Shown: positions 560-63,878 of the stretch, piece after piece
How positions within the stretch are numbered: the first letter of the stretch is position 1
Layout: the number at the start of each line of letters is the position of its first letter
From: Heptranchias perlo
Lineage: Eukaryota
Assembly (NCBI RefSeq): GCF_035084215.1
Contig: NC_090364.1
Location: 4,340,001 to 4,404,000 of the forward strand
DNA length: 64,000 nucleotides
Direction: 5' to 3'
Notes under the pieces: generated by a model
The model's input: only the letters and a program-made list of their open reading frames with translations
Databases searched by the model: none
What the model was told of the DNA's origin: nothing
Program-made: the position numbers and the translations under genes

Positions 560-2673
560 TTAATCACTCTCCCCCAGGGTGAGCTTGTCAAACAGGTACA
601 CTCCCATGCCATTCTCAGGGGCTCCCAGTCTCTTCAGGTTGGTGATGTGATCTCCAAGCTTCTTGATCATCTTCGCTTGTTCATCCAAGTAGTGGGTCTC
701 CAGGAAGTCACACAACTGGAAAAAGGGAGATATTTTCATTAAGGCAGCTATTTGAGCATATTGCTTTTCAGGTAGTCTTGATCTAATTCACTCTTTGCCA
801 CTTCAGGAGATCTGTCCTAAGAGTGACTGTTACAAGAGTGAACTCTCCTGCTTTGTTTTCAGAGATCTGCTCCTCACCAAAATTGGTGCTAATTAATGTG
901 TCCATTAAGCTGAACAAACAGATGGACTTGAGAATTTCATGGGTGAAAATCTTCACCAGAATCTCCCCAGTACACCAGGCTTAGTAGTGAAAAGCAATCA
1001 GACAGAACCTGGTCTGATATTTGAAGAATGGCAGCAACTTCAATGACCTGAAGTTAACATTCCTTTCACCCAAAATCAACAAATATTAAATGCTACAAGG
1101 CCTTAGGGACTTACATGAGGGTCTGTCCTCTCAGTGGACAGTTTGTGCAGATCCAACAGACTCTGGTTCACATTCTTCTCCATCTGCAGAGCTCTCTGCA
1201 TCACCTCCAGACCATTGCTCCACTCATCCTGCTCTGGCTTCTGAAAGAGCAGAACATGGAAAATTCCATGAACATCTGATGCTCTCATGACTAACTTCAA
1301 GTGAGAATTGGAGACATATCATTTATAACCCAGAGAACTGAACTAAGTACTGTGACTATGCAAATAAAAACATGCCTCAGTTAAAGATTACAGCCAAATA
1401 CACTGTCTGCTGTGAAACTATTCCTCATGCTCCATCCTCAGTCTGGAAAGAGAATTGTGAACTAATTACCTAAACAAGTTAATGATATGACAAATCACTC
1501 CCAATATTAGTTACATTTATAGCACAAAGCAGGCCATTCAGCCCATCATGTGTTCTGGATCTTGGATAGCTCAATCTAAATCCTCCTCCTCATTGACTCA
1601 TCCCTTGAAGCAGCATAGTCTTTGGTTCAACTATTCCCTCATCACAGTAATCTGGTTTGCTTTTATATCCCACATCACTATTCATTTTAGCAAACTGCAC
1701 TCAATCAAGGAATTAGATTTCCACCCCTGGTTTGTTTCTTCACACCCTTTCAGCATCTTAGCATTTCTGGTTTCCAATTGTGGTCCAGTCACTAATTCAC
1801 AGCTAACCTTGATGTCCTCCAAGATGATTCGGCCCCCACGCTGATTCTGGAATTTCAGCAGTTTCTCAGCGTGCTCCCGTTCCTCATGTGACTGCTCCTT
1901 GAAGAACTCAGCAAAGTGACGCAGGGCAACATCATCCCGGTCAAAGTAATAGGACTGGAATTTTAACAGAATCATGTCAGACCTAGATCTCACCAACATA
2001 CAATTATCTTTTTCTCCCTTCAGTTAATAAGTGCTGAAAGTTTCCTTAGAAAATAGATACTATTTGTTAACTCATAAATCAAACTAAACTGTACTTCTGA
2101 GTAAGTAGCCCCTCCTACTTGCCATTCTAATCTAAAATTGGGCAAGGAACAGGACAATTCTTACATTCCAGTAGTTTTAAACACAATCTGTTTTAGGATC
2201 AAAGCAGTGACAAAAGCCTAGGACTCGCATAGTACTTCACCTCCAAATAAAAATGCAAGAAAACTAGTGAGGACCTGTCAACATTTCACTGGCTACAGTC
2301 ACCCCATTGAAACTGAACTTTTTCTGTCAAATGTTGACAAGCACTTGACCAGGTTTCTGCTGTTACAAACTCAGGCAGCAGCCTCAATAGAGCACAGCTG
2401 CTGCAAGGAGCAGTCCATTAACACAAGATCACCCAAAATTACACAAAGTACTCACTGCCCAAAGATATTCCCCAAGGAGGAAAAGGAAGTCAAGAGAAAT
2501 GTAATTTGAAGCCAGTTCTGAACAGGAAAAAATTCCAAGTTCTCAGAATGCAGAGACAGTACAAGACTCACCATGGAGAGGTAAACATAGGAGGAATAGA
2601 GCTCCATATTGATCTGCTTGTTGACACCAGCCTCACACTCCTTGTGATAGTTCTGACACACTTGGGAAGCCAT
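560..2673 (-). CDS. Ferritin H/M-type subunit G1 (class A 5' end, intact ferroxidase motif EEREH, C-terminus GESD), 176 aa
   Basis: Exons 2673-2572, 1954-1808, 1240-1115, 715-560, all GT-AG. Translation [65 protein letters not shown].../KPEQDEW.../[16 protein letters not shown]...KLTLGESD*. An alternative in-frame ATG lies at 2676. Confidence 0.95.
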
Positions 2674-2751
2674 CATCACTGTTTAAATATTAGGACTATT
2701 CTCTATTGCTTAGAATGGTCTAGAACTATCTTCTTCCAACCCAAGCTCTTG

Positions 2752-2960
2752 TATTTATACTACTGGGACAGCCTGCATTTGAACCAGGAATGGACAGCAC
2801 CAATGATGATTGACAATCCCTGATAGCCAATCAGGAACCTTCCATGAATCCAGGCACCAATTAACAAAGGACAGGGCTCTGGGGGAGAGATTGATATCCA
2901 GAGCCAATCAGAGCTTTGCAATACAGGCAGGTTTGGGTGATTGGTCTCGGTGATGTCACC
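2752..2960 (-). promoter_or_regulatory. G1 proximal promoter: TATA box, CCAAT boxes, CRE/ATF-like TGACATCA
   Basis: TATAAATA at 2759-2752, about 80 nt above the ATG. Several CCAAT motifs at 2800-2910; TGACATCA near 2951-2958. The same layout occurs in G2, G7, G9 and G12. Confidence 0.7.
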
Positions 2961-3059
2961 ACTTTTGCCTCTTTTAATATGCCCGTTTCTGCAAGGACTG
3001 GAGAGCAGAGTTGATCAGGAAAATTAAAATTCTTCTTTGACTCTGGTTATTGATTTGTA

Positions 3060-60439: not shown

Positions 60440-60800
60440 TCACTGTTGTAATGTAAGAAATGCAGCAGTCAATTTGCCTCCAGCAAGGACCCAAAAACAG
60501 CAATGAAATATTGACCTGATAATCTGTTTTAGTGATGTTAGTTGAGGGATAAATATTGGTCCAGATATTGGGGAGAACTCCCCTGCTCTTCCTCGAAATA
60601 GTGCTGTGGGATCTTTCAAGTCCATCTGAGAGAGCAGATGAGGCCTCGATTTAGTATCACACACAAAAGACGGCACCTCTGACAGTACAGCACTCCCACA
60701 GTCAGCCTAGACTTTGTGCTCAAGTCTATGGATTGGGACTTGAACCCACAACCTTCTGACTCTGAGGTGAGAGTGCTGCCACTGAGCCACAGCTGACACA
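60440..60800 (-). mobile_element. SacSINE1/DeuSINE-like SINE upstream of G12
   Basis: Paralogous copy of 32720-33085. Confidence 0.75.
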
Positions 60801-61533
60801 AATGGAGATGTTTGTGTGGGTGACATTGCATTCAGTAATCTTCACTCCCTCTCATTCTCGCTGAATATCCTGAATTTTACCAAACAACATTTCATGAGAA
60901 TCAAAACTAAAAATGACACATCCCACAATGCTTTGCCCAGTTGATGCCCCCATGCTGCCAATCCTCAGACACACCCATTCTCTATATTAGAACTGGGGAC
61001 GATTCACACCATCCATGGGATGGAATTTCCATTTCTCTGTCCAATGGTTGGTTTGCAAATTCACTCAAGACTACTTGATTCCTCTGAATATTGTCTCAGC
61101 GTCACAATTACTTACAAGTAATAAACTTGACCAGATTATGAAAAGCCACTTCGGTGAAAATATCAAATTATGATCAAATAATTCAAAGTTGTCATTCCGA
61201 GAGATTGAAACAAAGAGAAACTTTCAAATTTGACGGAATTCAAAGACCCCAAAAGCAGTGACATCACCGAGACTGATTATCCAAATCGGCCTGTATTCCA
61301 AACCTCTGATTGGCTCTGGGTATCAATCCCTCCCCACACTGCCTCTCTGTTAATTGGTTAAATGGACGATTCCTGATTGGCTATCGGGGATTGTCAATCA
61401 TCATTGGTGCTGTCATTGCTTACCAAAATGCAGGCTGTCCCAGTAGTATAAATACAAAGAGCTTGTGAGTGAAGAGGTTAGTTCTAGAACTTTTTGAGCA
61501 ATAGTTGAAAGTGTTAATATTGAAATAGTGACA

Positions 61534-63878
61534 ATGGCCTCCCAAGTGTGTCAGAACTACCATAAGGAGTGTGAGGATGGTGTCAACAAGCAGATCAATA
61601 TGGAGCTCTATTCCTCCTATGTTTACCTCTCCATGGTGAGTCTTTTATTAATTGCCACTGCATTCTAAGTAGTTGGAATTTCTCCTGTTCAATAAACTGG
61701 CTCTAAAATGTGTTTCTCTTGATTTTTTCCACCTCCCTTGGAAGACAAAGCTTTGGCCAGTGAGTACTTCCAGTGTGTAATACAGGATAATCTTGTTGAG
61801 TTAATGGACTGCTCCTTGCAGCAGCTGCACTCTATTGAGGGGTTTAATATACTCCTGGCTGAGCTACTGCCTGAGTTTGGAACAAATGCAGAAACCTGGT
61901 CAAGTGCTTGTCAGCATTTGTCCAATTTCAGTTTCAATGGGGTGACTGCAGTCAGTGAAATGTTGACAGGTCCTCACTAGTTTTCTTGCCTTGAGACTCC
62001 TAGTAATGAAGCTTTCTTCACTGTTCCTAGATCTCTATTACACTAAATGATTGTCCAGTGTAAAACTACTGGGAAATGGAGTAATTGTCCCTTATTCCTC
62101 CACTAATTTTAGATTAGAATGGAGAGTAAATGGGGTACCACTGGCTCAGAAGTGAAGTTTGAGTTGAGATGAAATGTAATCCCTGACCTTAATTGCTACT
62201 TTTCTCTGATCCATTCATTATCCTATTGGGGAGGGGGCAGCTATTGACCATGTTGTGAAGTAAATTGAATTTTAGTAGTAAACAAATGCTATCTAATTTC
62301 TAAAACTTTGAGCACGAATTGTATGTAGGTGAGATCTAGGTCTGACATGATGCTGTTTTCAATATTCTCTCCTCAGTCCTATTACTTTGACCGGGATGAT
62401 GTTGCCCTCCGTCACTTCGCCAAGTTTTTGAAGGAGCAGTCGCATGAGAAACGGGAGCACGCTGAGAAACTGATGAAATTCCAGAATCGACGTGGTGGCT
62501 GTATTGTCTTTGAGGATATCAAGGTTAGCTGTGGAGAAATATTAATGACTGGCCCACAGTTGAAAACCACATATGGCAGGACATTGGAGGAACAGACCAG
62601 GTGGAAATATAATTCCTTGAGTGCAATTTGCTAAAACCAATAGGGATAAGAGGTACAAAAGCCAAGAAGATTGTTGTGATGAGGGACTAGTTTGACCTTT
62701 CACCAAAGACCATTTCTCAAGGGGCAGAGTAGATGAACATGAAGTTGAGAAAGTGGCAATATTGGGTTTATAGAGGATATTGTCCTTCTGTGGTTGTATT
62801 AATATAACATTGTCATACATCCTTTGCCTCAAGATAAGTAGGGAAACATTGAAATGTCTGACTTGATATTAATGTATTAATCAATGAGAATAAAACATAA
62901 CTCCTTTCATGTTGTAGGAGGTACAAGTACCAATAATACTTGCATGTCTATGCTTACAGGTAGGGGAGTGGAATTAATTTAGATTCCTCTGTCAAATCTA
63001 GGACACATGATGGGCTGAATGGCCTGTTTTGTGCTGTTGTGTAACTAATCTTGGTGTGACTTCTTGTTTTGGTGATTTCTCATCTTTCTTTGTTCAGTTA
63101 TCTGGAGTATAAACTAATCTCCATAACTCCAATTCTTGCATGAAGTTAGCAATGAGATCACCAGATGTTCATGGAATTTTACATCTTCTGAACTTTCAGA
63201 AGCCAGAGCAGGATGAGTGGAGCAATGGCCTGGAGGTGATGCAGAGAGCTCTGCAGATGGAGAAGGATGTGAACCAGAGTCTGCTGGATCTGCACAAACT
63301 GTCCACTGAGAGGACAGACCCTCATGTAAGTTTCTAATGCCTTGTGGTATTAATATATATTTCATAACTTCAGGTTGTCTAAGCCAGTGCCATCCTTCAA
63401 ACATCAGACCAAATTCTGTCCAATGGCTTTTCACTTCTAAAGCCTGATGTACTGGATTGATTCAATTGGATGATTTTCAGTAATGAAATTCTCATTAGTA
63501 AATCTGTTTGTTCAACTTAATGGACACCTTACAATTAGTACTGGTTTTGGTGAGGGGCAGATATCGAACAGAGATCTGGAAACAAAGCCCGGTGGGATGG
63601 TTTGGAGTAGGAGTTGACTTGTGTAATGGCAACTTTCTGTCTCCTACTTCAATTCTAATGTGACTAGATCCTGAAAAGCAATGTGGTCAAATAGCTGCCT
63701 TAATGAAAATATCTCCCTTTCCCAGTTGTGTGACTTCCTGGAGAGCCACTACTTGGATGAACAAGTGAAGATGATCAAGAAGCTTGGAGATCACATCACC
63801 AACCTGAAGAGACTGGGAGCCCCTGAGAATGGCATGGGAGTGTACCTGTTTGACAAGCTCACCCTGGGGGAGGAGTGA
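61534..63878 (+). CDS. Ferritin H/M-type subunit G12 (class A, E62K, near-copy of G7)
   Basis: Exons 61534-61635, 62377-62523, 63200-63325, 63726-63878. Confidence 0.94.

What the first reader, a model, noticed from the sequence alone, without database searches (positions are those of the whole stretch)
560..63878. At least 12 intron-containing ferritin subunit genes in one 64-kb array
Seen: 11 intact genes and 1 pseudogene, one every 4.6-8 kb, and the array may continue past both window edges. Known: mammals have single FTH1 and FTL genes, and extra copies are mostly processed pseudogenes. The 175-176 aa length, short N-terminus and E57 (FKEQSH) resemble fish/amphibian M-type chains. Inference: a lineage-specific amplified ferritin locus that supplies a combinatorial subunit pool for the 24-mer cage.
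Basis: partly seen in the sequence, partly recalled or inferred. Interest (0 to 1): 0.75.

Follow-up and report, generated by a model that had tools for sequence, protein, structure and literature searches.

The report
Shark ferritin array, two chain types
These twelve genes are a real slice of the large ferritin gene cluster already reported in sharks; what seems new is that they lack the usual iron-sensing RNA switch, that five of the eleven intact copies carry the light-chain lysine in the iron-oxidising site, and that their exons are kept nearly identical while their introns have diverged.

Summary
Confirmed: 12 four-exon ferritin genes, 11 intact and 1 pseudogene. One protein is identical to a Heptranchias perlo model. 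The expansion is published: it is shark-wide, ancient and ovary-expressed in the Greenland shark (Sahm 2024; Yang 2026). So it is not lineage-specific, and E57 does not make these M chains.

Not found in my searches: (1) none of the 12 copies has an iron-responsive element. (2) 5 of 11 intact copies have Lys at ferroxidase ligand E62, as L chains do; other sharks keep K62 in a separate tandem class (120 of 121 domains) that is small here. (3) Three intron families are unalignable, yet exon 4 differs at only 1% of synonymous sites between them, pointing to exon-limited gene conversion. (4) NCOA4-contact residues A19 and R23 are changed, which questions the ferritinophagy reading. RNA contigs support transcription of both chain types; the tissue is unknown.

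Best reading: a dosage-amplified oocyte iron store built from active and inactive chains. The biochemistry is untested.

The parts
560..2673 (-). g1, intact ferritin gene, 176 aa, E62 type, intron family B; exons 2673-2572, 1954-1808, 1240-1115, 715-560
   Evidence: exon 2 differs at 1 of 147 nt from g11 (family A)
6821..10833 (-). g2, intact, 176 aa, K62 type, family B; exons 10833-10732, 9974-9828, 9023-8898, 6976-6821
13470..15319 (-). g3, pseudogene (stop at codon 7, frameshifts in exons 2 and 3), family A, carries the K62 codon
17129..20178 (+). g4, intact, 175 aa, E62 but E140G, sole member of intron family C; head-to-head with g3
   Evidence: 3' contig 20252-20596 with 0 differences, unique in the window
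23004..25278 (+). g5, intact, 175 aa, K62 plus H65D, family A; K62 codon at 24147-24149
   Evidence: RNA contig 24110-24205 with 0 differences spans both codons and is unique in the window
28329..30949 (+). g6, intact, 176 aa, E62 type, family A
33800..36145 (+). g7, intact, 175 aa, K62 type, family B; protein identical to H. perlo XP_067830278.1 (P0095)
   Evidence: contig joints across all three introns at GT..AG
39340..41962 (+). g8, intact, 176 aa, E62 type, family A
   Evidence: a 3' flank contig carries 5 of 5 g8 variants
44819..47569 (+). g9, intact, 175 aa, E62 type, family B
50687..52963 (+). g10, intact, 175 aa, K62 plus H65D, family A; recent duplicate of g5
   Evidence: a 3' contig carries the g10 substitution and the longer T run
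56060..58671 (+). g11, intact, 176 aa, E62 type, family A; recent duplicate of g6 with an exon 2 nearly identical to g1
61534..63878 (+). g12, intact, 175 aa, K62 type, family B; recent duplicate of g7
21720..36265 (+). first copy of a segmental duplication (g5-g7); second copy 49407-63998 (g10-g12); 157 substitutions in 14,526 aligned bases (1.08%), 15 gap openings
28135..28328 (+). example proximal promoter and 5' UTR (g6): GATTGG, TCATCA, TATAAATA 82 nt before ATG; no IRE. The TATA box lies 70-88 nt before ATG in 12 of 12 copies

Best explanation
A 64-kb slice of the ancient shark ferritin cluster (Yang's 'FTH1b'), in Heptranchias perlo or a very close relative. Shown: 11 intact TATA-driven genes with about 40-60-nt leaders and no IRE, two chain types (E62 and K62), transcription of both types, and exon-limited homogenisation. 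Inferred: (a) the copies serve gene dosage, making large amounts of apoferritin in the ovary or oocyte under transcriptional control, free of IRP repression, to bank iron for the embryo. (b) E62 chains oxidise iron; K62 chains lose the di-iron site, probably through the L-type K62-E107 salt bridge, and act as stabilising or mineralising partners in mixed 24-mers. This copies the H/L division of labour inside one array. In other sharks a separate K62 tandem class seems to fill this role; in Heptranchias that class looks small and K62/N62 has appeared within the main class. (c) Unequal crossover and gene conversion confined to exons, strongest in exon 4, keep the chains compatible while introns, promoters and 3' UTRs diverge and reshuffle. 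(d) Changed NCOA4 contacts may shield this store from ferritinophagy.
For: Gene models. No IRE: 0 Rfam hits at gathering score, no IRE family among 4 weak hits to E 10, no IRE pattern between TATA and the end of exon 1 in 12 of 12. K62 in 5 of 11 intact copies, in two intron families; K62 in 10 of 10 L chains sampled; K62-E107 replaces the iron site in L ferritin (PMC11396501, passage); E62K/H65G/K86Q is used as a ferroxidase-null H chain (PMC4029007, passage). Other sharks: main class E62 in 160 of 166 domains, second class K62 in 120 of 121; H. perlo main class K or N in 10 of 36, second class only 4 entries. Purifying selection overall, pN/pS 0.22. Conversion: 0 of 41 between-family pairs give any local hit in any intron, but between-family pS is 0.011 in exon 4, 0.076 in exon 3, 0.26-0.27 in exons 1-2 (35 pairs); variable third positions 1 of 49 in exon 4 against 17 of 49 in exon 2; g1 and g11 share exon 2 at 146 of 147 nt across families; 3' flanks cut across intron families, e.g. 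g4 (C) shares 1.7 kb downstream with g7 and g9 (B); all 25 Heptranchias proteins form one clade (SH-aLRT 97) and 35 of 35 database copies share V167. Expression: exon bins deep and several intron/intergenic bins empty in run X1, spliced joints, copy-specific contigs. Ovary-specific expression of the Greenland shark cluster (Sahm, passage). NCOA4 contacts: A19 is D in 10 of 11 and R23 is K or Q in 11 of 11, while shark FTH1 (2 of 2) and a third shark clade (7 of 7) keep A19 and R23; human R23A and A19Y abolish binding (PMC11076521).
Against: No tissue label for any run; the four runs are one sample, one study, and 'RNA' is the tool's guess. Ovary expression is borrowed from another species; Yang report some copies active in fin and blood, and runs X2-X4 hold low-depth spliced contigs of a paralog. 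The null mutant I could cite is a triple mutant; E62K alone was not tested, and g2, g7 and g12 keep H65 and all other ligands. E62K is one transition, and the database copies also show N62 and scattered changes at 63 and 65, as relaxed selection would give. No second-class K62 sequence was retrieved from Pristiophorus, yet its main class is E62 in 55 of 58, which does not fit a strict need for K62 partners. The database counts are a sample, not a census: the first query was a K62 exon, only 15 members per cluster were listed, isoforms are included and window copies overlap. Exon 4 has 7 of 98 variable first/second positions against 1 of 49 third positions, odd for conversion plus purifying selection. 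R23K is conservative, 2 of 9 teleost M chains also have K, shark FTH1 itself has N22S and F82L, and shark NCOA4 was not examined. Transcription starts were estimated from the TATA box, not mapped; an upstream untranslated exon is not excluded, although no IRE was found anywhere in exonic or upstream DNA of the window.
Confidence: 0.6

Rival explanations
1. Dosage array as above, but the K62 copies are merely damaged duplicates tolerated through redundancy and spread by conversion; no H/L-like division of labour.
For: GAA to AAA is a single transition; the pseudogene g3 also carries it; N62, W63, D65 and E140G variants occur; exon 2 pN/pS is raised (0.28 overall, 0.58 within family A); Pristiophorus shows almost no K62 in either class.
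Against: K62 copies are intact, transcribed, present in two unalignable intron families, and match the residue fixed in L chains and in the second shark class. K or N at 62 is 10 of 36 in H. perlo against 4 of 166 elsewhere (paralogs are not independent).
Confidence: 0.25
2. The array is a somatic iron and oxidative-stress buffer tuned through ferritinophagy and ferroptosis, as proposed for longevity in the Greenland shark.
For: Yang et al. propose this and report activity of some copies in fin and blood; low-depth ferritin contigs occur in runs X2-X4.
Against: No IRE, so no iron-responsive translation; altered NCOA4 contacts; exon bins are 1e4-5e4 deep in one run and at most 77 in three others, while a repeat bin is 10,009-20,745 in all four (contig depth is a rough measure); Sahm report ovary-specific expression; Yang note high copy numbers in sharks without extreme lifespan.
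Confidence: 0.1
3. Exon 4 is uniform not through conversion but through selection on the nucleotide sequence itself (an mRNA or DNA element inside exon 4).
For: Third positions are more uniform than first and second positions in exon 4 (1 of 49 against 7 of 98); 0 differences at 16-19 four-fold sites in each of 6 between-family pairs.
Against: Species-specific amino-acid changes in exon 4 are shared by nearly all copies within a species (V167 in 35 of 35 H. perlo copies, E in most others); 3' flanks switch family at exon 4; exon 2 also shows a clean conversion patch.
Confidence: 0.12
4. Part of the count is an assembly artefact: g10-g12 are the other haplotype of g5-g7.
For: The blocks differ by only 1.08% substitutions; no DNA depth was available.
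Against: g6, g8 and g11 are three distinct near-identical versions (introns 99-100%), more than two alleles of one locus; g8-g9 lie between the blocks; every other pair is far more diverged. Even if true, 9 genes remain, 3 of 8 intact ones K62.
Confidence: 0.12

Closest known systems
Shark tandem ferritin cluster: 'FTH1b' of Yang et al. 2026 (PMC13214024; passages and term search of 5 supplementary files) and 'FTL/FTH1' clusters of Sahm et al. 2024 (10.1101/2024.09.09.611499; one passage, supplements not seen)
   Same: Tandem, intron-containing, multi-copy ferritin genes in sharks; the window proteins fall in one clade with copies from many sharks. Almost certainly the same locus type.
   Different: Neither main text contains 'conversion' or 'concerted'; Yang's has no 'ferroxidase', 'iron-responsive', 'ovary' or 'Heptranchias'. 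Window proteins are 70-75% identical to tetrapod H chains, not the 90% or more that Sahm state. K62 inside the main class is a Heptranchias feature.
Vertebrate H/L heteropolymer ferritin (FTH1 + FTL)
   Same: Active E62 chains beside K62 chains; same fold family and helix B motif.
   Different: Here both types are 92-98% identical paralogs in one array, without IRE; K62 chains keep E27, Y34, E107 and Q141, and nest in the array clade, not with L.
Amphibian and teleost M chains (bullfrog M, P0362)
   Same: 175-176 aa, short N-terminus, E57, complete ferroxidase set in E62 copies; 65-75% identity.
   Different: M144 instead of D (bullfrog M) or mostly A/T; K23 instead of R in most; no supported grouping.
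Mammalian X-linked FTHL17 family (PMC5363321, PMC2724270; passages)
   Same: Germline-expressed, clustered ferritin copies, without ferroxidase activity in human, with signs of concerted evolution.
   Different: Independent origin; FTHL17 genes are intronless retrocopies (recalled) and few; the shark genes have introns and half keep a full catalytic site.
Egg and yolk ferritins of snails, schistosomes and amphibians (cited in PMC1488847; passages)
   Same: Ferritin as a maternal store; schistosome ferritin mRNAs lack IREs (title of a cited paper).
   Different: The shark chains show no signal peptide in the gene models, so they would be made in the storing cell; they are amplified by gene copy number.

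Membership tests
Animal cytosolic ferritin | Ferritin domain with helix B motif | tested here: met
   Exon 2 alone hits 240 PDB sequences, best E 1e-21 to H chains; relatives at up to 98% identity carry PF00210
Animal cytosolic ferritin | Four exons, three introns (vertebrate pattern, recalled) | tested here: met
   12 of 12 copies; joints in RNA contigs for g7 and g5-like copies
Animal cytosolic ferritin | Assembly into a 24-mer cage that stores iron | not testable with these tools
   Single-sequence model failed (pLDDT 37); no assay
FTH1 (H chain) | Ferroxidase ligands E27, Y34, E61, E62, H65, E107, Q141 | tested here: inconclusive
   Complete in 6 of 11; E62K in 5 of 11, two of them also H65D
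FTH1 (H chain) | IRE in the 5' UTR | tested here: not met
   0 of 12; transcription start estimated, not mapped
FTH1 (H chain) | Nested in the FTH1 clade with shark, teleost and tetrapod H | tested here: not met
   FTH1 clade 97/91 excludes the array; a sister position is not rejected, p 0.35
FTH1 (H chain) | NCOA4 contact R23 | tested here: not met
   K in 10 of 11, Q in 1
M chain (amphibian/teleost) | Ferroxidase centre plus cavity carboxylates (E57, E60, E64; recalled) and D144 in bullfrog M | tested here: not met
   E57 and E64 present, H60 and M144 in 11 of 11; E57 is not diagnostic
M chain (amphibian/teleost) | Common descent with M-type chains | tested here: inconclusive
   Not grouped, not rejected, p 0.38
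L chain (FTL) | K62 opposite E107 in place of the iron site | tested here: met
   5 of 11 intact copies have K62 and E107; geometry and activity not tested
L chain (FTL) | Descent from the L clade; E141 and further loss of ligands | tested here: not met
   K62 copies keep E27 and Q141 and nest in the array clade; L clade 99/99 excludes them
Shark tandem ferritin cluster ('FTH1b') | Many tandem intron-containing copies related to those of other sharks | tested here: met
Shark tandem ferritin cluster ('FTH1b') | Syntenic position and flanking genes | not testable with these tools
   No genome held; no other gene found in the window
Shark tandem ferritin cluster ('FTH1b') | Ovary-specific expression | tested here: inconclusive
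   Strongly skewed to 1 of 4 runs, tissue not on record

The most novel reading that the evidence does not exclude
Sharks run a dedicated, IRE-free maternal iron-banking system: a tandem locus that encodes both catalytic (E62) and L-like non-catalytic (K62) ferritin chains shielded from NCOA4. The L-like chain was re-invented inside the main class in the Heptranchias lineage as the older K62 class shrank, and an exon-4-centred recombination hotspot keeps all chains able to co-assemble. The cluster would then be a reproductive adaptation, not a longevity or ferroptosis gene family.
Probability: 0.3. Interest if true: 0.7.

Novelty: new variant of a known kind. Interest (0 to 1): 0.48.

Why it matters
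The shark ferritin expansion was recently offered as a clue to Greenland shark longevity through ferroptosis. If the array is IRE-free, ovary-driven and poor at binding NCOA4, that reading weakens and the cluster becomes a way to provision very large eggs with iron. The K62 copies are natural near-isogenic H-like/L-like pairs (92-98% identical) that make the origin of the L chain directly testable. The exon-limited homogenisation is a clear natural case of gene conversion overriding very old intron divergence, and it means protein trees understate the age of these paralogs.

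Tried and rejected
No whole genome is held, so synteny, total copy number and DNA of other sharks could not be read. No run is on record as RNA; four runs guessed as RNA were laid once, on 16900-36500 only (g4-g7), and the tool showed 8 X1 pieces of 1613 laid. AlphaFold on P0095 without an alignment gave pLDDT 37 and was not used. The careful 139-row tree did not finish; the quick tree is cited, with a careful 44-row LG+G4 tree as check. AU tests could not place the array with FTH1, M or the second shark class, nor that class with L (p 0.49); holding the K62 window copies with the second class was only marginally rejected (p 0.046), so a short conversion tract from that class is not excluded. 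A database model fusing a receptor tyrosine phosphatase to ferritin (P0054) did not settle FTL versus FTH1 synteny. cDNA-mediated conversion was considered because of the 3' bias; shared sequence runs up to 1.7 kb past exon 4 into intergenic DNA, which favours DNA-level exchange. TCATCA was considered as an essential promoter element: present in 11 of 12, but g7 lacks it and g7-type transcripts are spliced. The one full IRE-like hairpin (51642) lies in intron 1 of g10. Long ORFs between genes are unremarkable; no tandem repeats of note. Ten paper searches and three look-ups of earlier findings gave no account of K62 chains, IRE loss or conversion in shark ferritins; subscription journals are not covered.

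Full report
OBSERVATION. The four exons of the first gene, searched against the window, give 12 complete four-exon sets between 560 and 63878, three on the minus and nine on the plus strand. Eleven translate to open frames of 175-176 aa with GT-AG, phase-0 introns; g3 has a stop at codon 7 and frameshifts in exons 2 and 3. Spacing is 4.5-8.2 kb apart from the head-to-head pair g3/g4 at 1.8 kb.

ORGANISM AND PRIOR ART. The g7 protein is identical over 175 of 175 residues to XP_067830278.1 of Heptranchias perlo, and all best matches are to that species. Close relatives occur in many copies in other sharks, in 90% clusters of up to 180, 138 and 127 members. The expansion is in print. Sahm et al. 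(bioRxiv 10.1101/2024.09.09.611499; one passage seen, supplements not seen) report 155 'FTL' and 179 'FTH1' copies in the Greenland shark, clusters syntenic with the white shark, at least 250 My old, with ovary-specific expression. Yang et al. (PMC13214024; passages and a term search of five supplementary files, figures not seen) report that sharks generally have many 'FTH1b' copies, 59 in the Greenland shark in tandem clusters of 55 and 4, and link them to ferroptosis and longevity. The array as such is therefore known and not lineage-specific.

WHAT KIND OF CHAIN. Exon 2 position 1 aligns to human H residue 38, which fixes the numbering. In a careful 44-protein tree the array chains form a chondrichthyan clade (95/95) with a chimaera sequence basal, outside FTH1 (97/91, including chimaera and skate FTH1), teleost M (99/97) and L (99/99). 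AU tests reject neither an FTH1 nor an M affinity. E57 is not diagnostic, and residue 144 is Met. The chains cannot be filed as H, M or L.

TWO CHAIN TYPES. Six intact copies (g1, g4, g6, g8, g9, g11) keep E27, Y34, E61, E62, H65, E107 and Q141. Five (g2, g5, g7, g10, g12) have K62, and g5 and g10 also H65D. All 10 L chains sampled have K62; a review states that the K62-E107 salt bridge replaces the iron site in L ferritin (PMC11396501, passage), and E62K/H65G/K86Q is a standard ferroxidase-null H chain (PMC4029007, passage). Loss of activity in the shark chains is inferred, not measured. Among 304 cartilaginous-fish proteins retrieved, domains sort into the main class, a second multi-copy class labelled 'middle' or 'heavy' in databases, a third small clade and FTH1. 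The second class has K62 in 120 of 121 domains from 12 species; the main class outside Heptranchias has E62 in 160 of 166; the H. perlo main class has K in 6 and N in 4 of 36, and only 4 second-class entries were found for it. This is a biased sample, not a census: the first query was a K62 exon, cluster listings stop at 15, isoforms are included, and two window genes are among the 36. Against a strict need for K62 partners, Pristiophorus gave no second-class sequence and is E62 in 55 of 58.

NO IRE. Rfam finds nothing at gathering score and no IRE family down to E 10. All 12 copies have a TATA box 70-88 nt before ATG, leaving about 40-58 nt of leader, with no IRE pattern; the only full hairpin pattern in the window is intronic. 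The promoters share ATTGG boxes (12 of 12 within 150 nt of TATA, 0.29 expected per 150 nt) and TCATCA (11 of 12, 0.06 expected) across families, though related copies are not independent. That inverted CCAAT boxes are typical of oocyte promoters is recalled, not tested.

EXPRESSION. Contigs of four runs (one sample, guessed to be RNA, tissue not on record) were laid on 16900-36500 at 98% likeness. In X1, exon bins reach 1e4-5e4 while several intron and intergenic bins are empty, and joints cross all three g7 introns at GT..AG. In X2-X4 exon bins stay at or below 77, while a repeat bin is 10,009-20,745 in all four; contig depth is only a rough guide. A 96-nt contig with no difference spans the K62 and D65 codons of g5 and occurs once in the window; a g4 3' contig is likewise unique; two other contigs carry the variants of g10 and of g8. 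Copies outside the window could be the true source of any of these. At least four copies, of both types, thus appear transcribed.

HOW THE ARRAY EVOLVES. Introns sort the genes into three families, A (g3, g5, g6, g8, g10, g11), B (g1, g2, g7, g9, g12) and C (g4). None of 41 between-family pairs gives a local hit in any intron; all 25 within-family pairs do, at median 73-75%. Yet between families synonymous divergence is 0.011 in exon 4, 0.076 in exon 3 and 0.26-0.27 in exons 1-2. Only 1 of 49 third positions varies in exon 4 against 17 of 49 in exon 2. g1 (B) and g11 (A) share exon 2 at 146 of 147 nt. 3' flanks ignore intron families: g1 and g2 (B) share theirs with g3, g6, g8 and g11 (A), and g4 (C) shares 1.7 kb with g7 and g9 (B). 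All 25 Heptranchias proteins in the large tree form one clade (SH-aLRT 97, quick tree), and 35 of 35 database copies have V167. This is the pattern of exon-limited conversion with crossovers in exon 4. One result does not fit neatly: exon 4 varies more at first and second positions (7 of 98) than at third, so nucleotide-level selection remains a rival. A recent duplication (g5-g7 to g10-g12, 1.08% substitutions) could be a haplotype artefact, but g6, g8 and g11 are three versions, and nine genes would remain.

NCOA4 SITE. Human R23A and A19Y abolish NCOA4 binding (PMC11076521, passages and Table 1). The window chains have D19 (10 of 11) and K or Q23 (11 of 11), like the main class in other sharks (D in 38, K in 43 of 45), whereas shark FTH1 and the third clade keep A19 and R23. 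R23K is conservative and shark NCOA4 was not examined, so this is a prediction only.

MECHANISM AND VERDICT. Most likely (0.6): a dosage-amplified, IRE-free ferritin locus that loads ovary or oocyte with iron, built from active E62 and inactive L-like K62 chains kept compatible by conversion. Gene structure, residue states, IRE absence, transcription and homogenisation are shown; ovary function rests on Sahm and on general egg-ferritin literature (PMC1488847, passages); chain activity, co-assembly and NCOA4 escape are inferred. Main rival (0.25): K62 copies are tolerated decay. The closest functional analogue outside sharks is the germline FTHL17 family of mammals (PMC5363321, PMC2724270, passages), of separate origin. 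Ten paper searches and three look-ups of earlier scan findings gave no description of the K62 split, IRE loss or conversion in shark ferritins; supplements of Sahm and subscription journals were not seen. Other papers opened: PMC13701976 and PMC11719527 (passages), PMC11979771 (term search, no ferritin mention). The locus is known; this anatomy is a new variant. Interest 0.48.

Noticed in passing
database proteins P0068, P0195, P0198, P0201, P0207 and their clusters: A second multi-copy shark ferritin class, annotated 'middle' or 'heavy subunit-like', has K62 in 120 of 121 domains across 12 species and lies on the same records as the main array in several species; it is a candidate L-like class with unresolved relation to FTL.
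   Followed up: partly
database proteins P0210, P0218, P0223, P0237, P0245, P0257, P0263: A third clade, one sequence per species in sharks and rays, keeps E62, A19 and R23 and sits on the array's record in several species; possibly the somatic gene of this locus.
   Followed up: partly
P0201, P0207 versus P0040, P0116, P0118: In bamboo and epaulette sharks the two classes share the same C-terminal variant (GLGEYLFDRL), hinting at exon 4 conversion between classes; Heptranchias classes do not share V167.
   Followed up: no
P0054 (Scyliorhinus torazame draft model): A gene model fuses a fibronectin-repeat receptor tyrosine phosphatase to ferritin, so such a gene probably borders the array; its identity could settle synteny.
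   Followed up: partly
P0131, P0446, P0449, P0214: Entries labelled Salmonella enterica cluster with shark ferritins, and one labelled Aeromonas veronii is a 74% match of vertebrate type; probably contaminated or mislabelled records.
   Followed up: no
window 3568-4019, 11869-12445, 32961-33539, 43974-44527, 60678-61256: A 450-580-nt element, 86-95% identical, lies upstream of family B genes on both sides of the strand switch; the repeat at about 31942-33249 is deeply covered in all four runs.
   Followed up: no
window 15319-17129: g3 and g4 are head-to-head 1.8 kb apart, marking the strand switch of the array; one partner is a pseudogene.
   Followed up: no
window 25242-26192 and 31392-32031: Low-depth contigs run several hundred bases past the first AATAAA of g5/g10- and g8-type genes, suggesting read-through or longer 3' UTRs.
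   Followed up: partly
Sahm et al. passage: The statement that copies share at least 90% of residues with human orthologs does not hold for these proteins (70-75% to tetrapod H chains), and the FTL and FTH1 counts may partly count the same loci twice.
   Followed up: no
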